Origin: Shigella phage Sf20
Reading direction: 5' to 3' (one strand)
Sequence record: MF327006
DNA length: 64,000 nucleotides
The notes beneath the pieces were generated by a model. The model saw only the letters and a list, made by a program, of their open reading frames with translations. It was not told the DNA's origin and ran no database searches. Positions 6,628 through 13,396 of the stretch are shown here, piece by piece (position 1 is the first letter of the stretch; the number at the start of each line of letters is the position of its first letter). Both the position numbers and the translations under genes were made by a program.

Positions 6628-8871
6628 TTACAGCTTGCAAGATGAGCACTCGCTAGCGTCTTCCGTACCATCTGCACCGTCGCGAACGTTCGCATAATAC
6701 AGGGTTTTCAGACCGTAATATTGAGCAAACAACATATCATCTAACACATCAGCAATATCGACTTTACCAGTCTTATAAGTGCTTGGATCGTATGATGTAT
6801 TGGAACTAATCGCCTGATCCACAAACTTCTGCATGATCGCTGCCAGTGTCAGATAGGGCTTGTTACCTTTCTTGATCAGTGTCCAAAGCAGGTCAATAAC
6901 ATCAGCATTATTCTCTACGTTCGGAATAACCTGATTAAATTGCCCTTCTTTCGATCCTTTAACCGATACAATCCCGCGAGGCGGTTCAATACCGTTTGTG
7001 CTGTTAGATACCTGAGAAGACGACTCACAAGGCATCAGAGCCGAAAGCGTACTATTACGAATGCCATATTTTTTCAGGTCTTCGCGCAGTTCTTCCCAAT
7101 CCATCTCATACACAGGATCAACCAGTTCATCTACTGTCTTTTTGTACCAGTCGATAGGCAGTTCACCGCGTCCATAACGTGTTTCGTGCATCAGTTCGCA
7201 AGCACCCTTCTCTTTAGCCAGTTGCACACTAGCCTTAATCAGAGCATATTGCAAGCGTTCAAACGTTTTATGCGTAAACTCGTTAGCGTCTTCATATGTG
7301 AAGAAATTATCCGCTAGATATGACGCAAAGTTAGTCACACCAACACCCAGAGAGCGACGTTTTTTGGCTGTCAGAGCTTGTTCTACAGGATAATCCTGAT
7401 AATCTAACAGGTTGTCAAGTGCACGCACCATAACCATAGCAATGCGTTCTACTTCTTCCATGTTTTCGATATCGAAATTACCTAAAACATATGCTGCCAA
7501 AGTACATAGGCTAATTTCTGAATCATCACGACCCATCGGTTTTGTAGGCAGAGCAATTTCACAACACAGGTTAGATTGTTTAATCGGTGCTACATTACGA
7601 ATAAACGCCCCGTGATTGTTCATGTTGTCTGTGAACGTTGGGTAGATTCGACCAGTGTTAAAACGTTCAATTGCCACCGCTAAAAACAGGTCTTCGGCTT
7701 TAACACGAGTTTTACGAACACTCGGATCTTTTTCCAGTTTTTCGTAAAGCTGGCGGAAACCTTCCTCATCTCGGAAGTATAGATCCCACAACAAGCCACC
7801 TGCAATATCTGGACTAAACAGAGTAATGTAATCCCGTTTAAGGAATCGCTCTACCATCAGGTTATTAATCTGTACGCCGTAGTCAAGATGGCGAATGCGG
7901 TTATCTTCCACGCCCTTATTGTTCTTTAACACAATCAGACTTTCAAACTCTAAATGCCACATTGGGTAATAGAGTGTCGCTGCCCCGCCACGAATACCGC
8001 CTTGTGAGCATGACTTAACGGCAGTCTGAAAATGTTTCCAGAATGGGATAACGCCAGTATGACGAACTTCACCATGCCCGATCTTAGATCCTTCCGCGCG
8101 AATCATGCCAGCGTTGATACCGATACCAGCACGCTTGCTAATATACTTAATGATTGCATTTGCGGTTTCATTAATACCCTGCAATGAGTCATCACTTTCA
8201 ATCACCACACACGAACTAAATTGGCGTGTTGGAGTACGCACACCCGCCATAATCGGAGTAGGCAGAGAGATTTGCTTATTCGCAACAGCATTATAAAAAT
8301 CAATCACATGTTCAAGTCGATTTTCTGTCTCTTCTTGATGCAAGCACATACCGATCAGCATATACGCAAATTGCGGTGTTTCAATGATTTTCTTAGTGCT
8401 GCGATCCTGAACAAGATATTTCTCTTTTAACTGCATCGCACCAGCATAGGTCATTTTAAAATCAAGTTTATGGTCGATGAATTTCTCCAGATATTCCACT
8501 TCTTCACGGGAATACTTTTGCAGAATTTCGCGATCATATTTTCCGGTTGCAATATTACGCTCAATATGGCTGTAAAAATCAATCGGTTGGAATTGACCGT
8601 ATACTGATTTGCGAAGCGCGAACATTGCAAGGTTACTTGCTACATATTGATAATCGGGTGTTTCTACAGTGATGTTATCTGCGGCGACCTTAATCAATAC
8701 TTTCTGGATATCATTGGTAGACATACCTTCTGTCAGAAGTGGTTCAACCATATCAAACAATTCATATGGATCAACGTTATGACCTTCGGCTGCCGCTTCC
8801 AGAATTTTCATCACTTTTTCTTTTTCAAACGGAACAGTCAGACCGGAAGACTTAACAACATTTTTAATCAT
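6628..8871 (-). CDS. nrdA: ribonucleotide reductase alpha subunit
   Basis: 747 aa; ATP-cone N-terminus, C-terminal CSSCKL-type tail; SD GAGGT. Confidence 0.95.
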   Translation of the reverse strand: MIKNVVKSSGLTVPFEKEKVMKILEAAAEGHNVDPYELFDMVEPLLTEGMSTNDIQKVLIKVAADNITVETPDYQYVASNLAMFALRKSVYGQFQPIDFYSHIERNIATGKYDREILQKYSREEVEYLEKFIDHKLDFKMTYAGAMQLKEKYLVQDRSTKKIIETPQFAYMLIGMCLHQEETENRLEHVIDFYNAVANKQISLPTPIMAGVRTPTRQFSSCVVIESDDSLQGINETANAIIKYISKRAGIGINAGMIRAEGSKIGHGEVRHTGVIPFWKHFQTAVKSCSQGGIRGGAATLYYPMWHLEFESLIVLKNNKGVEDNRIRHLDYGVQINNLMVERFLKRDYITLFSPDIAGGLLWDLYFRDEEGFRQLYEKLEKDPSVRKTRVKAEDLFLAVAIERFNTGRIYPTFTDNMNNHGAFIRNVAPIKQSNLCCEIALPTKPMGRDDSEISLCTLAAYVLGNFDIENMEEVERIAMVMVRALDNLLDYQDYPVEQALTAKKRRSLGVGVTNFASYLADNFFTYEDANEFTHKTFERLQYALIKASVQLAKEKGACELMHETRYGRGELPIDWYKKTVDELVDPVYEMDWEELREDLKKYGIRNSTLSALMPCESSSQVSNSTNGIEPPRGIVSVKGSKEGQFNQVIPNVENNADVIDLLWTLIKKGNKPYLTLAAIMQKFVDQAISSNTSYDPSTYKTGKVDIADVLDDMLFAQYYGLKTLYYANVRDGADGTEDASECSSCKL

Positions 8872-8940
8872 ATTACCTCACTTCATATTTTAGCAGGAAC
8901 AAGTTTATCCTCCATATTGGGGGCTTTCGCCCCCCTTTGT

Positions 8941-10173
8941 TTATACTGCCATTTGAGCGGTGATTGCTGGATGGCTTTGATAGTTGTGAATTTTAAAGTC
9001 TTTCGGAGTCTTTGTCAATACCTCATCTAAAGATTTAAATTCCGGCAACTCAATTGTTGGTTTATCAAACGGAACACGGCTTAACTGTTCCATAACTTGA
9101 TCAAAGTGGTTTTTGTAAATGTGAGTATCTCCACCAGAGAAAATCAGTTCTCCTACCTCAAGATCACACATTTTCGCTATGATGTGAGTTAACAGCGCAT
9201 AGCTGGCGACGTTAAAGGGCAAGCCCAAAAAGCTATCTACGCTTCTCTGAAACCACATGCAAGATAGTTTACCTTCATTGACATAGAATTGCACGAAAGG
9301 ATGACATACACCTAATACAGCATTATGTGTTCCTTGTACGTTCCATGAGTCAATGATGATACGTCGATCCGTTGGATTGTTTTTAATTTGTTCAATCACG
9401 TTTTGTAACTGGTCTTCCCAAATCTTCGGGCGATAGACATATTCTTCATCGTCTTTAGTGCTCGATGTGTCTACGTCCATACTAGCAAAGATCGTGGTAT
9501 CTGGTGCTAAAATATCCCCACCCAGATAATCACTATCAAGCAGATAACCGAAATAACCATCATCTACCCATTCCTGGAATCCCCACAAGCAATATGCATC
9601 ATTAACAAAATTAGATTGAGTCTTCCAGTGATCGGCTACTAAGAATTGATTATATTCAGAATCAAACTCTTCATAACGCATACCACGCCAGATAGCACAT
9701 AAACGGTCTTCTGTGTCATTGGTTGGCGTAAAGTCTTCTACCCACGGGTGTTTAAATGTATGTGTATATTTGCTCTTAACGCGCTTAATTTTGATTTCAC
9801 CATGTGGATGAATCGGTTTGCGTCGCCACGCCATACCATACATATTGCCGACATTATAACCATTGAATCGCAAAGGATTCTTTTCTTTCATATCAAGACA
9901 GTTGCCGCGCCAAATGTCGAAGGCTTCTTCGTCAAACTTGCCGCGTGTAATTTCTTGTAAGCGACGGCGATCAAGTGATCCCTCCATAAACCATAGCAAC
10001 TCGCCAATTACAGAGGCTGTAGCCATCTTTTTAGTGGTCAGTAAGGGGAAACCCTTGCTTAAGTCAATTCGCATTTCTGCACCGAATTTAGAGAGCGTAC
10101 CTACCCCCGTGCGGTCTTCACGAGGCCAGCCATTATCAAGAACATCACGCAACAGTTTCAAATATTCTTTCAT
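8941..10173 (-). CDS. td: thymidylate synthase with ~130-aa internal insertion
   Basis: DRTGVGT, TTKK, ELLWF, RRIIIDSWNV, CHPFVQFY, LGLPFNVASYALL ThyA motifs; 410 aa versus ~265-290 typical. Confidence 0.85.
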   Translation of the reverse strand: MKEYLKLLRDVLDNGWPREDRTGVGTLSKFGAEMRIDLSKGFPLLTTKKMATASVIGELLWFMEGSLDRRRLQEITRGKFDEEAFDIWRGNCLDMKEKNPLRFNGYNVGNMYGMAWRRKPIHPHGEIKIKRVKSKYTHTFKHPWVEDFTPTNDTEDRLCAIWRGMRYEEFDSEYNQFLVADHWKTQSNFVNDAYCLWGFQEWVDDGYFGYLLDSDYLGGDILAPDTTIFASMDVDTSSTKDDEEYVYRPKIWEDQLQNVIEQIKNNPTDRRIIIDSWNVQGTHNAVLGVCHPFVQFYVNEGKLSCMWFQRSVDSFLGLPFNVASYALLTHIIAKMCDLEVGELIFSGGDTHIYKNHFDQVMEQLSRVPFDKPTIELPEFKSLDEVLTKTPKDFKIHNYQSHPAITAQMAV

Positions 10174-10408
10174 CCCACTTCCCCTTTTTCTTTGCTTTCT
10201 TACGCAGTTTTGCTACTGTCTCGCTAATGTTAATAAAAATATCGTCTGGACCGAATACAGTAACAGGTCTTGATATATCGCTATTTTCTTGTACAGGAAA
10301 CCATGACGCTTTCGATTCATCATAGAGATATTGCAACCCGTAAAGATCTTCTGCTACTGCGTAGTTTTCATGGGTTGCCGACCATAATCGAATAATATTG
10401 ATTTTCAT
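10145..10408 (-). CDS. hypothetical protein
   Basis: ORF track ORF trimmed to ATG at 10406-10408 (MKINIIRLW...); 3' end overlaps td start. Confidence 0.4.
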   Translation of the reverse strand: MKINIIRLWSATHENYAVAEDLYGLQYLYDESKASWFPVQENSDISRPVTVFGPDDIFINISETVAKLRKKAKKKGKWDERIFETVA

Positions 10409-10500
10409 TATTGTTCCCGTCCGCAGTGTAAACACCGACTACCAGCAAACATCAAAGATTCACCACAATGTTTGCACTCATAATCTGTCAGAATTTTCAT
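10408..10500 (-). CDS. zinc-ribbon micro-protein (30 aa)
   Basis: Hand-translated MKILTDYECKHCGESLMFAGSRCLHCGREQ (CxxC...CxxC); between frd stop and next start. Confidence 0.25.
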   Translation of the reverse strand: MKILTDYECKHCGESLMFAGSRCLHCGREQ

Positions 10501-10501
10501 G

Positions 10502-11071
10502 TTACGCCTTCTTACGTTCTAAAATTTGTTCGCTGATCAGGTAATCATCAAGGAAGTAATTATGTTCTTCTTTTGTTGCAAAGTCAAAATATAATTCCTG
10601 AATCATTTCCTTAGAGATACCAACATCATATTCGAACGGATCATTAATTCCTGCTCGTTGAACATACGTTAACACAATACGGTCCGCAAAGTCAACCGCT
10701 TTTTCAATCAGGGAAGGTCCGCCGATAACACTTACCAAACCTTGCGTTTTCTCTAGGGCTTTTAACAGATCCTTCAATTCAATTCCAGTATACACATCAG
10801 GTTGGTCGCCGTTTTTAGCTTTCGGTTCTGGCTTGTTGGTATCGGTGCTAACAACCACATTCAAACGTCCCCAAAGTGCTTTAGGCAGACTTTCAAAGGT
10901 ATTGCGTCCCATTACTACCGCAGAAAAATCAACCTCGCCAATAGTGCGCATTTTAAAGTTTTCCATGTCCTTTTTGATTGGACGCCCCCACGGTAAACCG
11001 CCTTTAAAACCAAAAGCCCAATTTTCATCTGACATTTTAGTGTCACCAATCGCAAATACACATTGAATCAT
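10502..11071 (-). CDS. frd: dihydrofolate reductase
   Basis: 189 aa; AFGFKGGLPWGRP...VMGRNTFESLP...VIGG DHFR motifs. Confidence 0.85.
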   Translation of the reverse strand: MIQCVFAIGDTKMSDENWAFGFKGGLPWGRPIKKDMENFKMRTIGEVDFSAVVMGRNTFESLPKALWGRLNVVVSTDTNKPEPKAKNGDQPDVYTGIELKDLLKALEKTQGLVSVIGGPSLIEKAVDFADRIVLTYVQRAGINDPFEYDVGISKEMIQELYFDFATKEEHNYFLDDYLISEQILERKKA

Positions 11072-11447: not shown

Positions 11448-11475
11448 ATTATACACTATTGCGTTACGCTGTCAA
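11448..11475 (-). promoter_or_regulatory. sigma70-type early promoter
   Basis: Minus sense TTGACA-N16-TATAAT. Confidence 0.55.
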
Positions 11476-12273
11476 CTCTTTTTCAAAAGATTTTACGATA
11501 TACATTAAATTTCTAATTTCGGACGGTGGGATTGTCTCTGTCCACCCGTCCGGCATAACTTTTTGCGATACGTGGCGTGTTTTATTACTAAGTTTTTGTC
11601 GAACAATACCCTCTAATTTTAGGGGTATGTTTCCATCTTTAGTTGTTAACGTATGGAATATAAAGTGACGAACGGAAGACACGCTGGATTGCTGTTTCAT
11701 CCTTTCCTCGGCTTTTTTGTTAGTGATTCCGAACTTATACCCGACAATACAACCCCAATTATCAACCAGTTTTTGTATATAAAAGGTTCCTGGTTTTCTT
11801 TTATCATAACCTCCTTTTTGAGTGGGACATTTCGGACACTGCATATCATCTAAAGATGCGACATATTTGCCATGAACGCAGCAATCCATACTTAGATTCT
11901 TTTCTCTTGCATTAATATACCCATTAATAAATCCATTGGATTTTACTTTTTCATTATGAGAACAAAATTCATCAATTCGTATATTTGCTGATATAACATT
12001 TTTTCTTCTCATTCGTTCCATCCAACATTCTTGACAACCACCTCCCCCATTTTTAAGTATATCGATAGTGGTTAATTTTTGCTTGTGGTTTGGATTTAAT
12101 CCACAAGCAATTTTAATTTTAGATCGTACACCAGACCACTCATAGAATCCCAAATATATCATATCTCCGCTTTTTATTTTTGGCGAATTTAATGCTTCAT
12201 TTTCAATCTCAATTGGAGATTTTGAATTATAGTAATGGATATATTCTATATCTTTAGCAAATCTGGTGTTCAT
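11464..12273 (-). CDS. Cys-rich protein with possible C-terminal GIY-YIG-like (T5orf172-like) fold
   Basis: ORF trimmed to ATG 12271-12273 with SD GGAGGA; CQEC, CCVHG, CPKCP clusters; C-terminal FYIQKL...VGYKFGIT...ERMKQ. Confidence 0.45.
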   Translation of the reverse strand: MNTRFAKDIEYIHYYNSKSPIEIENEALNSPKIKSGDMIYLGFYEWSGVRSKIKIACGLNPNHKQKLTTIDILKNGGGGCQECWMERMRRKNVISANIRIDEFCSHNEKVKSNGFINGYINAREKNLSMDCCVHGKYVASLDDMQCPKCPTQKGGYDKRKPGTFYIQKLVDNWGCIVGYKFGITNKKAEERMKQQSSVSSVRHFIFHTLTTKDGNIPLKLEGIVRQKLSNKTRHVSQKVMPDGWTETIPPSEIRNLMYIVKSFEKELTA

Positions 12274-12300
12274 TTTGTCCTCCGTTGTTTCTATGCTTGC

Positions 12301-12328
12301 ATTATACATTATCTCGGATCAGTGTCAA
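12301..12328 (-). promoter_or_regulatory. sigma70-type early promoter
   Basis: Minus sense TTGACA-N16-TATAAT. Confidence 0.55.
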
Positions 12329-12391: not shown

Positions 12392-13360
12392 TCACATCGC
12401 TAACAGAGAGTCCAGGTCATCCAGATCAGAAGCGGAGGAAGTACCGCCACCCAGGTCCAGAGATGCCATCAGGTCATCAGCGGAAGAATCTAACGCCGTG
12501 CTAGCTGCATTAATACCAACTACAGTGCTAGCTGCGGTCATACCAGAATCGAATGCATTCATCTGTGCGTCAAAATCGTCAAGCTGGCTGTTAATCGCTG
12601 CCGCAGCACTGGAAGCCGCAGCACCAGCTACCATAGAAACGCCCATAGTTTTCTTAAATTTGGTTTCCAGTTCATCGAACGGTTTAAACTGGCTAGGCGC
12701 TACAATCTCACTCAGATCAACCATGTTTTCCATCAGATATTTCTGATATGCTTCGTCTTCAATTTTCGGAAGCTGTGATTGCTGCATGAAACGAGAATCA
12801 TCATAGTTCTGGTGTTTATCAACCTTCTTAGCTTTCAGGAGGAAGTTAGCACCAGAGAACACACAAGTTACATCGACCGGAACTTCGCCCATATCGGTAT
12901 TCACGTTAACCATTGCAACGATCTTATCATAAATTTTCTGACCGAAGCGGAATTTGAATACCTTACCTTCATTTTCTGGTGCTTGAGGATCTTTCAGTAC
13001 CAGAATATTTGCGTAGTAAGACGCTTTACGCTTAATCAGTTGCCATTCGGTTTTATCGGTATTGTACAGGTCTTTTTCGTTAATATATTTGCACACAGGG
13101 CAAGAATCAAAATCACCGTGGGTGCTGGAGCAGTTTTCCCAATACCATTTACCATTAACTTTGAAGGAATGGTTTACCAGTTTCACAATCGGCAGACCGT
13201 CTTCTGTCTTAGACGGCAGGAAGCGAATCAGTGCTTCACCGTTACCTGCTGCATCAGTCTTAATCTTCCACTCTTTCGGATCTTCTTTGGAGAAACCGTT
13301 GCCACCTTTCAGTGCGGCCAGTTGAGCTTGCAGTTTGGAAGAATCTTGGCGTTTAAACAT
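12392..13360 (-). CDS. 32: single-stranded DNA-binding protein
   Basis: [19 protein letters not shown] zinc site, [18 protein letters not shown], acidic C-terminus DLDDLDSLL; ATG at 13358-13360. Confidence 0.95.
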
Positions 13361-13396
13361 ATTCACTATTCCTTCTTTTGATTGATTTACTAGACT

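What the first reader, a model, noticed from the sequence alone, without database searches (positions are those of the whole stretch)
8941..10173. Intron-less thymidylate synthase with a ~130-aa internal insertion
The td ORF has all ThyA catalytic motifs but is 410 aa. An extra segment (IKIKRVKSKYTHTFKHPW ... EEYVYRPKIWE) sits at the variable small-domain site between the GMAWRRKP and IDQLQNVIEQIKNNP regions. It lacks intein boundary residues. T4 td instead carries a group I intron; here the ORF is continuous.
Basis: partly seen in the sequence, partly recalled or inferred. Interest (0 to 1): 0.45.

Follow-up and report, generated by a model that had tools for sequence, protein, structure and literature searches.

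The report
Endonuclease fossil inside phage thymidylate synthase
This phage's thymidylate synthase carries, in frame and apparently unspliced, the worn-down remnant of a selfish homing-endonuclease domain lodged in one surface loop, and intact-looking versions of the same module sit at the same loop in about a hundred other phage thymidylate synthase clusters.

Summary
A 410-aa ThyA ORF lies at 8941-10173 on the minus strand. About 133 extra residues (aa 121-253) sit between YGMAWRRKP and DQLQNV. The window is a Krischvirus (RB49-like), and all 58 relatives keep the long gene.

The site is not the L. casei small-domain site. It is the hairpin loop after the YGxQWR motif (E. coli 102-109).

The insert is not a ThyA elaboration. 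It is a truncated copy of the divergent HNH-like domain of "IPA-HNH"/HNH-AP2 phage homing endonucleases such as ICP1 gp59 (hhalign 95.4%, E 2e-8).

Longer copies (190-285 aa) occupy the same loop in ThyAs of jumbo Klebsiella phages, Vibrio phage D181 and at least 71 metagenomic clusters. Nearly all of them keep an invariant LDKD motif. Near-identical ThyA cores exist with and without the module.

The window's copy has lost both flanking sub-modules, LDKD (now LDSD), the Cys positions and the helix of the ββα unit. Even so, it folds confidently (pLDDT about 90+) on a β-stalk and is under purifying selection (ω about 0.12-0.3).

No intein or intron signals were found. Best reading: an in-frame, unspliced, catalytically dead endonuclease fossil inside an active enzyme. 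Exaptation is not excluded.

The parts
8941..10173 (-). td (thyA) CDS, 410 aa plus stop
   Evidence: ORF list. Pfam PF00303 E 1e-84. NCBIfam thymidylate synthase. 58 Krischvirus orthologues.
9823..10173 (-). ThyA core, N-terminal part (aa 1-117), ending in YGMAWR
   Evidence: Aligns to E. coli ThyA 1-82 and onward. Invariant R21, E58, Y112, W116 and R117 in the family alignment.
9415..9813 (-). Whole inserted segment (aa 121-253, 133 aa)
   Evidence: Unmatched by any ThyA in the PDB. tblastn links it to the KP13-7 ThyA insert (E 5e-12) and to the D181 ThyA chimera, which its record annotates as 'HNH endonuclease'. hhalign to free-standing IPA-HNH-type proteins: 95.4%, E 1.9e-8.
9784..9822 (-). 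β-stalk, ascending strand (aa 118-130, RKPIHPHGEIKIK)
   Evidence: AF2 strand E118-130 with pLDDT above 85. The motif xPHGxxxIxRK is conserved in nearly all chimeric ThyAs.
9442..9783 (-). Remnant HNH-like domain proper (aa 131-244): helices 153-169, 181-193, 199-204 and β-hairpin 210-213/228-231
   Evidence: AF2 model, pLDDT about 90+ except aa 171-180. Aligns to the helical core plus ββ of long inserts and free-standing proteins. ω 0.12-0.3.
9643..9660 (-). Variable loop SEYNQF (aa 172-177), site of an in-frame 4-codon indel among Krischvirus
   Evidence: Protein alignment of 7 Krischvirus Td proteins. It falls in the lowest-confidence block of the model, pLDDT 74.
9562..9600 (-). DAYCLWGFQEWVD (aa 192-204), a segment specific to ThyA-resident copies of the module
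   Evidence: Present in long and short ThyA inserts, and absent (gapped) in the 7 free-standing proteins. Invariant within short forms.
9529..9540 (-). LDSD (aa 212-215), the degenerate counterpart of the family's invariant LDKD at the end of β1 of the ββα unit
   Evidence: Motif table. LDKD is kept in 69/71 ThyA chimeras and 45/46 free-standing representatives.
9412..9441 (-). β-stalk, descending strand (aa 245-254, YVYRPKIWED), rejoining ThyA at DQLQNV
   Evidence: AF2 strand E245-254. The motif V/YxRPxIxxDQ is conserved in the chimeras.
8944..9414 (-). ThyA core, C-terminal part (aa 254-410), including the catalytic Cys290 (9304..9306)
   Evidence: Aligns to E. coli 110-264. Invariant C290, H291, R310, S311, D313, N321, H351 and Y353. 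The whole model superposes on E. coli ThyA with TM 0.93, normalised to the target.

Best explanation
The extra 133 residues are a molecular fossil of a homing-endonuclease gene that inserted in frame into td.

What the original element was. It was a module of the IPA-HNH / HNH-AP2 class. It comprised a small N-terminal β-barrel, a helical domain ending in a ββα (HNH-like) unit with an invariant LDKD motif, and a small C-terminal β-β-α module. It landed in the tip of a surface β-hairpin of ThyA (E. coli 102-109), directly after the YGxQWR motif.

How it is expressed. It is translated as part of the enzyme and is not removed by RNA or protein splicing. This is inferred from the sequence and the model, not shown on protein. 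The hairpin strands are extended into a two-stranded stalk that holds the module away from the ThyA core, and the core remains a complete and presumably active thymidylate synthase.

What has happened in this lineage. In the Krischvirus lineage the module has decayed. Both flanking sub-modules, the LDKD lysine, the Cys positions and the helix of the ββα unit are gone, so it can no longer cut or home (inferred).

Why it persists. What remains is a helical core of about 115 aa plus a β-hairpin that still folds. I infer that it is retained for three reasons. Only a very precise in-frame deletion could remove it without damaging the hairpin. A misfolding insert would harm an important enzyme, which explains the purifying selection. 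An occupied loop no longer offers the empty target site to related endonucleases.
For: Homology. The window insert matches the KP13-7 ThyA insert (E 5e-12; reciprocal hits to RB49-type td at 2e-12 to 3e-11). The KP13-7 insert matches ICP1 gp59 (3e-11). It also matches PHROG 'HNH endonuclease' families 2081, 953 and 374 (1.7e-33, 1e-25 and 2e-20). A direct profile-profile comparison of short inserts against free-standing proteins gives 95.4%, E 1.9e-8. ICP1 gp59 is a founding member of the IPA-HNH HEG family, which has a divergent N-terminal HNH domain plus AP2 (PMC10448857). HNH-AP2 HEGs are tabulated in RB49, JSE, RB16 and RB43 (PMC2993671).

Mobility signature. The P0024 core is 92% identical to the insert-free P0056. 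Their contigs are syntenic, and DNA homology (77-81%) is interrupted exactly at the loop. Insert-bearing ThyAs are not monophyletic on the core. Three different ThyA scaffolds carry the module at the same loop. 71 of 148 new representatives are ThyA chimeras broken at ThyA profile position about 115.

Decay. LDKD, G[NS]xxYS, CxF and the helix Asn are invariant in free-standing proteins and in 17 of the 18 long copies tabulated, and all are degenerate in the 8 short forms.

Translated and constrained. ω is 0.12-0.3, and the only indel is in frame. The full-length model has pLDDT 93.5 and pTM 0.91 with a β-stalk.

Core intact. The catalytic residues are invariant and TM is 0.93 to E. coli ThyA.

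Not spliced. There is no Rfam hit. There are no Hint/intein Pfam domains. The residue after the insert is Asp.

Against: Several observations point to more than an inert passenger. Purifying selection on the remnant is real. The remnant has been retained across relatives down to about 51% identity (P0006, on a T4-like 169-kb contig). It was trimmed independently to the same sub-structure in two lineages. A motif specific to ThyA-resident copies, LWGFQEWVD, is strongly conserved.

The direction of change (gain or loss) at the polymorphic loop is not resolved, because the occupied and empty alleles compared are only 77-87% identical in DNA.

The absence of splicing is inferred from sequence and model, not shown on protein.
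Confidence: 0.6

Rival explanations
1. Exapted domain. The insert has the same origin (an endonuclease-derived insert), but the remnant now has a function selected for the phage. Examples would be a docking surface in the T4-type dNTP-synthetase complex or replisome, nucleic-acid binding (ThyA autoregulation), or modulation of ThyA activity.
For: ω is 0.12-0.3 over the domain. The remnant is retained in all 58 Krischvirus genomes and in relatives down to about 51% identity. It was trimmed convergently to the same core in two lineages. The segment DxYxLWGFQEWVD is conserved only in ThyA-resident copies. The high pTM of 0.91 suggests a fixed orientation relative to the core.
Against: All of these observations are also expected for a domain that merely has to fold without disturbing an important enzyme. 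ω in the insert is about ten times higher than in the core among close relatives. The most conserved family motifs are lost rather than repurposed. No partner or ligand is indicated by any search.
Confidence: 0.3
2. Live element. The window's Td is still a bifunctional enzyme whose insert cuts insert-less td alleles and drives homing.
For: Long relatives keep every conserved motif and are sporadically distributed. In JSE/GEC-3S a recombination boundary lies about 20 nt from the insert's 3' junction.
Against: The window copy has LDSD in place of LDKD. It has lost the helix of the ββα unit, the Cys positions and both flanking modules. The insert is fixed in all 58 genomes rather than sporadic.
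Confidence: 0.04
3. Removed before the enzyme matures. The insert would be an atypical intein, an unrecognised intron, or a translational bypass element.
For: T4 td has a group I intron and phage ThyX genes host inteins, so td-type genes do attract splicing elements.
Against: The region has no Rfam hit at E<=1. The frame is open, and substitution and indels show codon-level constraint. There are no Hint domains and no terminal His-Asn, and the +1 residue is Asp. AF2 builds the flanks into one continuous β-hairpin with pLDDT of about 85-98.
Confidence: 0.03
4. Lineage-specific elaboration of ThyA's own variable small domain, unrelated to mobile elements.
For: ThyA has known variable insert sites, and some insert-free relatives have 25-35-aa loops at this same position.
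Against: This is a different site from the L. casei small-domain insert. The insert is significantly homologous to free-standing phage proteins outside ThyA. Near-identical cores exist with and without it.
Confidence: 0.03

Closest known systems
IPA-HNH / HNH-AP2 free-standing homing endonucleases (e.g. ICP1 gp59, gp209; Barth, Dunham & Seed 2023, PMC10448857; Magnani et al. 2004, as cited there)
   Same: The helical-plus-ββ(α) domain is homologous. They live in phages next to or within essential nucleotide-metabolism and replication genes. The HNH-like fold is equally divergent and is not seen by Pfam.
   Different: Those are separate genes with a C-terminal AP2 domain. Here the module is an internal, in-frame part of ThyA, has no AP2 domain, and in the window has lost the invariant LDKD motif and the helix.
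Inteins with homing-endonuclease domains, and mini-inteins as their decayed form
   Same: Both are in-frame insertions of a selfish element into a conserved site of an essential enzyme. The endonuclease part decays over time. Distribution is sporadic across host-protein phylogeny.
   Different: There is no Hint splicing domain, no nucleophile or His-Asn junctions, and the +1 residue is Asp. The insert is predicted to stay in the mature protein as a permanent domain.
T4 td group I intron carrying I-TevI
   Same: The host gene (td) and the general logic are the same: a mobile endonuclease exploits a conserved td sequence.
   Different: That is an RNA-level element at a different site in td, encoding a GIY-YIG enzyme, and it is spliced out. 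Here there is no intron and the element is translated within Td.
Known ThyA length variants: the L. casei/Enterococcus small-domain insert (about 50 aa) and the eukaryotic inserts
   Same: They are surface insertions that ThyA tolerates.
   Different: The L. casei insert is at another site. Those inserts are short and have no homologues outside ThyA. This one is a foreign, independently folding domain.
PacI and other minimal ββα-Me (HNH) nucleases
   Different: Sequence identity is 9% and the score is marginal. The family has Lys where HNH enzymes have the catalytic His. The window copy lacks the α-helix of the motif.

Membership tests
Thymidylate synthase ThyA (PF00303) | Sequence match above the curated threshold over the whole profile | tested here: met
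   284 bits against a cut-off of 24.3. The two stretches together cover profile positions 1-266. TIGR03284 scores 283.5 against 108.35.
Thymidylate synthase ThyA (PF00303) | Catalytic residues (E. coli numbering: Cys146-His147, Arg21, Arg126'/127', Arg166, Ser167, Asp169, Asn177, His207, Tyr209, Glu58, Tyr94) | tested here: met
   R21, E58, Y112, R270, C290, H291, R310, S311, D313, N321, H351 and Y353 are invariant, and R271 is nearly invariant (at least 90%), in the 39-sequence alignment.
Thymidylate synthase ThyA (PF00303) | Complete ThyA fold | tested here: met
   Foldseek against E. coli ThyA structures gives TM 0.91-0.93, normalised to the 264-residue target.
Thymidylate synthase ThyA (PF00303) | dUMP to dTMP activity | not testable with these tools
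   Inferred from intact residues and a core ω of 0.01-0.17.
IPA-HNH / HNH-AP2 homing endonucleases | Homology to the family's divergent N-terminal HNH-like domain | tested here: met
   hhalign of short inserts against free-standing proteins including ICP1 gp59 gives 95.4%, E 1.9e-8 over 66 columns. A tblastn chain supports it. PHROG 2081, 953 and 374 match the long inserts.
IPA-HNH / HNH-AP2 homing endonucleases | ββα-Me structural unit | tested here: not met
IPA-HNH / HNH-AP2 homing endonucleases | Invariant motifs LDKD, G[NS]xxYS, CxF and helix Asn | tested here: not met
   The window has LDSD, GGDILA, TIF and no helix Asn. The motifs are kept in 69/71 ThyA chimeras and 45/46 free-standing representatives.
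IPA-HNH / HNH-AP2 homing endonucleases | C-terminal AP2 DNA-binding domain | tested here: not met
   No AP2 domain is found in the window Td or in the long inserts. Long inserts instead have a small β-β-α module, and the window has lost that too.
IPA-HNH / HNH-AP2 homing endonucleases | Free-standing gene with sporadic presence or absence | tested here: not met
   The insert is internal to td and fixed in all 58 Krischvirus records. Presence/absence polymorphism is seen only for long relatives.
IPA-HNH / HNH-AP2 homing endonucleases | Site-specific DNA cleavage and homing | not testable with these tools
   No biochemical data were found for any member.
Inteins | Hint splicing domain, with an N-terminal Cys/Ser/Ala, a C-terminal His-Asn and a Cys/Ser/Thr at +1 | tested here: not met
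   There are no Pfam Hint or intein hits. The junctions are ...WRRKP|IHPHG and ...RPKIWE|DQL. The flanks form one β-hairpin in the model.
Group I/II introns | Ribozyme structure interrupting the reading frame | tested here: not met
   cmscan of 8500-10600 on both strands gives no match at E<=1. The ORF is continuous, with codon-level constraint.
L. casei-type ThyA small-domain insert | Insert located between IWDEWA and GxLGxxYGxQWR | tested here: not met
   The window insert follows YGMAWRRKP. P0126 aligns to the Enterococcus, S. aureus and L. casei structures through their small-domain insert and carries the module separately downstream.

The most novel reading that the evidence does not exclude
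The long relatives of this insert represent a third way for a homing endonuclease to live inside an essential gene. There is neither intron nor intein. The nuclease is inserted in frame, unspliced, at the tip of a surface hairpin, so that the chimeric ThyA is at once the metabolic enzyme and the endonuclease that cuts empty td alleles. ThyA would be the privileged, perhaps the only, host of this lifestyle. The Krischvirus Td of this window would be its domesticated or decayed end state.
Probability: 0.3. Interest if true: 0.8.

Novelty: new variant of a known kind. Interest (0 to 1): 0.6.

Why it matters
Homing endonucleases are thought to survive inside essential genes only by hiding in self-splicing introns or inteins, or by sitting between genes. 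Here the evidence indicates that an endonuclease-type module can be tolerated as a permanent, translated domain in a surface loop of a central metabolic enzyme. All stages of its life cycle are visible in public data: intact-looking, partly deleted, and fossil.

This gives a concrete and testable system. One could take the 517-aa KP13-7/phiKp_21 ThyA and the 410-aa RB49-type Td and ask whether in-frame, unspliced homing exists.

It explains a 20-year-old oddity of RB49-type genomes, namely a 410-aa Td. It corrects misannotations, since ThyA chimeras are labelled 'HNH endonuclease' and the reverse also occurs.

It also identifies a ThyA loop that accepts insertions of up to about 285 aa, which is of practical interest for protein engineering.

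Tried and rejected
- Insert alone against Pfam (E<=10), NCBIfam and PDB sequences: no hits. PHROGs gave only a faint hit (E 0.27), which turned out to point the right way.
- Word-indexed search with the insert alone found nothing, not even self. The same tool with an insert profile returned few proteins. tblastn against phage genomes and the exhaustive HMM search were what worked.
- Profile of the inserts against PDB sequences: nothing meaningful.
- My initial guess, from memory of the W..M..RC motif, was that the insert matched the DNA-binding part of HNH endonucleases. I revised this. The literature and the fold assign this region to the divergent HNH-like domain itself.
- Alignment A3 (free-standing P0127 against full-length chimeras) forced spurious C-terminal matches, so I did not use it for modelling.
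- Intein, intron, frameshift and terminal-fusion readings were rejected.
- I searched the 64-kb window for a second copy of the module, as a possible donor. There is none.
- Literature searches for a prior description of the Td insert found none in the held library. The original RB49 genome paper (PMC135041) is not held, so I cannot exclude that it remarks on the long td.
Full report
**1. The observation**

The ORF at 8941..10173 is real but lies on the minus strand. It has 410 codons and an ATG start. The plus-strand translation of the interval is full of stops.

It sits in a T4-type nucleotide-metabolism cluster, all on the minus strand: nrdA at 6628-8871, td, a 96-aa ORF overlapping the td start, frd (DHFR) at 10502-11071, two further ORFs, and gene 32 at 12392-13366.

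Pfam Thymidylat_synt matches in two stretches (E 1.1e-84). Against solved structures, E. coli ThyA residues 1-82 align to residues 1-82 and residues 110-264 align to 254-410.

The YGMAWR motif (aa 112-117) matches E. coli YGKQWR. So the extra material is aa 121-253 (window 9415..9813), replacing the 7-8-residue loop WPTPDGRHI of E. coli. One search confirms the E. coli registration independently.

The window is a Krischvirus (RB49-like). All 58 related phage records carry the full-length gene at 90-98% DNA identity. That excludes a frameshift or an assembly artefact.

**2. Where the insert sits**

It is not at the L. casei 'small-domain' site. In solved Enterococcus, S. aureus and L. casei enzymes, the roughly 50-aa small-domain insert lies between IWDEWA and GxLGxxYGxQWR, which is upstream of that motif. 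The window's insert lies downstream of it.

One metagenomic ThyA (P0126) has a small-domain insert of that type and, separately, the module discussed below after QWRKW. The site is a β-hairpin loop. Some insert-free relatives have 25-35-aa loops there.

**3. What the insert is**

Searched alone, the insert has no Pfam, NCBIfam or PDB-sequence match. It has only a faint PHROG 'HNH endonuclease' hit (E 0.27).

tblastn against phage genomes was decisive. The insert matches an internal part of the 517-aa thyA of jumbo Klebsiella phage KP13-7 (E 5e-12). It also matches a Vibrio phage D181 gene annotated 'HNH endonuclease' (E 3e-5), which is itself a 477-aa ThyA with a larger insert at the same loop. 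Weaker matches go to small free-standing phage genes annotated HNH endonuclease or DNA-binding protein.

The longer inserts match three PHROG 'HNH endonuclease' families strongly (1.7e-33, 1e-25 and 2e-20). With the KP13-7 insert as query, tblastn finds 2,035 places in 1,447 phage records. These include:
- ICP1 gp59, directly after the DNA polymerase gene;
- a gene between primase and polymerase in Vibrio phage D391;
- one between two 'DNA packaging' ORFs in Yersinia phage fPS-26;
- one after 'DNA polymerase part I' in phage alia;
- one near exonuclease and thyA in Vibrio phage K470.

These free-standing proteins are 174-273 aa and have no significant Pfam match (only sub-threshold hits).

Barth, Dunham & Seed (2023, PMC10448857) define ICP1 gp59, gp115/116 and gp209 as 'IPA-HNH' homing endonucleases. 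These have an N-terminal HNH domain so divergent that only HHsearch detects it, plus a C-terminal AP2 domain. The authors count 431 of them in 240 phage genomes, preferentially next to DNA polymerase, RNR and terminase genes. Petrov et al. (2010, PMC2993671) list 'HNH-AP2' HEGs in RB49, JSE, RB43 and RB16.

A direct profile-profile comparison of the eight short (window-type) inserts against seven free-standing proteins, with no long intermediates, gives 95.4% probability and E 1.9e-8 over 66 columns. Homology of the window insert to this endonuclease family is therefore established.

**4. Structure**

The full-length window Td, modelled with a 39-sequence alignment, gives mean pLDDT 93.5 and pTM 0.91. 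Its core superposes on E. coli ThyA at TM 0.91-0.93, normalised to the 264-residue target.

The insert is a well-ordered domain. Two long strands (118-130 and 245-254) form a stalk. On it sit helices 153-169, 181-193 and 199-204 and a β-hairpin (210-213, 228-231). Only residues 171-180 are weak (pLDDT 74).

The complete 245-aa module of P0012 (a KP13-7-type ThyA, the cluster named for Klebsiella phage phiKp_21), modelled alone, gives pLDDT 92 and pTM 0.87. It comprises:
- an N-terminal β-module (strands 39-71);
- the same helical core;
- a ββα unit (strands 162-164 and 179-181, helix 183-190);
- a small C-terminal β-β-α module.

BFVD gives another viral ThyA chimera as the top hit (564 aa, E 6e-17). 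Dozens of small phage proteins follow, some named homing or HNH endonuclease. The fold evidence is weak on its own but agrees with the published HHsearch assignment.

**5. A family of chimeric ThyAs, and mobility**

The full-length search returned about 25 clusters of 401-613-aa ThyAs ranking above ordinary 276-304-aa enzymes. The exhaustive profile search found 23,033 representative clusters with the module at E<=1e-3, and 7,937 at E<=1e-10. I classified the best 148 new ones:

| Class | Number | [LIVM]DKD kept |
|---|---|---|
| ThyA chimeras, interrupted at ThyA profile position about 115 | 71 | 69/71 |
| Small free-standing proteins | 46 | 45/46 |
| Proteins with two tandem modules | 31 | 29/31 |

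No other host protein appeared. This ranking is biased towards ThyA, because the profile was built from ThyA-resident copies.

Insert-bearing enzymes are not one clade on the ThyA core:
- The P0024 (552 aa) core is 92% identical to insert-free P0056.
- The nearest core to P0022 is also insert-free.
- P0126 has a bacterial-type scaffold.

The P0024 and P0056 contigs are syntenic (237/238-aa ORF, 98-aa ORF, DHFR, ThyA). Their DNA aligns at 77% over 1.8 kb up to the loop and at 81% after it. A 28-aa loop in one is replaced by a 281-aa module in the other. This pattern is expected of an element that enters, or is precisely lost from, one specific site. The alleles are too diverged to give the direction or the exact boundaries.

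**6. State of the window's copy**

In the alignment of all forms, the motifs LDKD, G[NS]xxYS, CxF and a helix Asn are invariant in the 7 free-standing proteins and in 17 of 18 long inserts. All 8 short forms have lost them:

| Short form | Sequence at the LDKD position |
|---|---|
| Window | LDSD |
| P0002 | LDCD |
| P0003 | LTQK |
| P0004 | LSCD |
| P0005 | LSCK |
| P0006 | LSLV |
| P0009 | LDKN |
| P0013 | LNKS |

The window copy also lacks the N-terminal β-module, the C-terminal module, the Cys positions (RC..., VCxRW, TCxF) and the α-helix of the ββα unit. Whatever the intact module does, the window's copy has lost the family's most conserved features.

The remnant is nevertheless not drifting freely. 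Among seven Krischvirus td genes, ω in the domain is about 0.12-0.3, against 0.01-0.17 in the core. The only length change is an in-frame 4-codon indel in the low-confidence loop.

Short forms arose at least twice. P0009 and P0013 have cores 68-72% identical to the KP13-7-type long forms but only 50-54% identical to the window group. Both lineages retained the same helical core plus hairpin.

The short form also occurs in a more distant T4-like phage contig (P0006, 51% identity, 169 kb, frd-td-nrdA-nrdB synteny).

A 10-residue segment, DxYxLWGFQE[W/F/Y]VD, is conserved in all ThyA-resident copies and absent from free-standing ones.

**7. Alternatives excluded**

- Intron: there are no Rfam matches at E<=1 on either strand of 8500-10600, and the frame is open and evolves codon-wise.
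- Intein: there is no Hint domain, the junctions lack a nucleophile and His-Asn, the +1 residue is Asp, and the flanks form one continuous β-hairpin in the model.
- Terminal fusion or frameshift: excluded.
- A donor copy in the window: none found.

**8. Interpretation**

Shown:
- The insert is internal, in frame, conserved and well folded in silico.
- It is homologous to the HNH-like domain of a described HEG family.
- Larger, motif-complete copies sit at the same loop in many ThyAs, with presence/absence polymorphism.
- The window copy is truncated and has lost the invariant motifs.
- The ThyA core is intact.

Inferred:
- The element entered td as an in-frame HEG and stays in the mature protein.
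- The window copy is catalytically dead.
- It persists because only a precise deletion is tolerated, because it must fold, and possibly because it blocks re-invasion.

Not resolved:
- Whether IPA-HNH modules are really nucleases. I found no biochemistry, and the motif has Lys where HNH enzymes have His.
- Whether the long ThyA chimeras are active homing enzymes.
- Whether the remnant has acquired a new role.

I put 0.6 on the 'inactive fossil/passenger' reading, 0.3 on exaptation, and about 0.1 on everything else.

**9. Novelty**

Databases annotate the 410-aa Td without comment. I found no paper in the held library that describes the insert or ThyA-endonuclease chimeras. The original RB49 genome paper is not held.

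The endonuclease family is known, and so is the idea that HEGs invade conserved sites of essential genes. What is new is the mode: an in-frame, apparently unspliced internal domain in a metabolic enzyme, recurring at one loop, with a visible decay series. I class it as a new variant of a known kind.

Noticed in passing
window 11464..12309 (-): A 281-aa ORF between the frd region and gene 32 matches PHROG 681 'endonuclease' (E 2e-46) and has no Pfam hit. It is full-length in only 3 phage records (ELT4, MIZ4, MIZ5), whereas td is in 58. Other Krischvirus genomes share only its last 107 nt or so and annotate a GIY-YIG nuclease there. It looks like a sporadic free-standing homing endonuclease at a variable locus about 1.3 kb from td.
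   Followed up: partly
window about 9096..9393 (-) (td gene nt about 781-1078): In phages JSE and GEC-3S, td is 93-100% identical to the window up to and including the insert. A divergent patch of about 300 nt (47-82% identity) then begins about 20 nt after the insert's 3' junction, and identity returns to 98-100%. So a recombination boundary coincides with the insert edge (also visible as a high core dS).
   Followed up: partly
window 9643..9660 (-): An in-frame 4-codon indel polymorphism (SEYNQF/SEYNLF versus YI/CI) occurs among Krischvirus Td proteins. It falls exactly in the least confident loop of the insert model.
   Followed up: yes
L002 1910-3343 (Vibrio phage D181, CAM0023654.1): This gene is annotated 'HNH endonuclease' but is a 477-aa thymidylate synthase with the module inserted (Pfam PF00303, E 1.9e-47). 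It is a misannotation caused by the embedded domain.
   Followed up: yes
L007 1965-2639 (Vibrio phage BT-1011, QWX10202.1): A 224-aa free-standing module protein is annotated 'portal protein'. It has a weak I-HmuI NUMOD-like C-terminus and is probably misannotated.
   Followed up: partly
P0131, P0136, P0138, P0142 and 27 others: 31 of the 148 best new representatives are 331-724-aa proteins; most carry two tandem copies of the module, and none has a ThyA part.
   Followed up: no
P0019 (613 aa), P0122 (490 aa, truncated): These ThyA chimeras carry an additional N-terminal extension of about 95 aa of unknown nature upstream of the ThyA core.
   Followed up: no
window 10145..10435 (-): A 96-aa ORF (PHROG 16012, unknown function) overlaps the td start codon region by 29 nt, which suggests translational coupling. 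The same arrangement is annotated in RB49, JSE and others.
   Followed up: no
L003 2372-2968 (phage alia gp039): This free-standing module protein, with an AP2-like C-terminus, lies directly after an ORF annotated 'DNA polymerase I, part I'. That suggests a split polymerase gene with a resident HEG.
   Followed up: no
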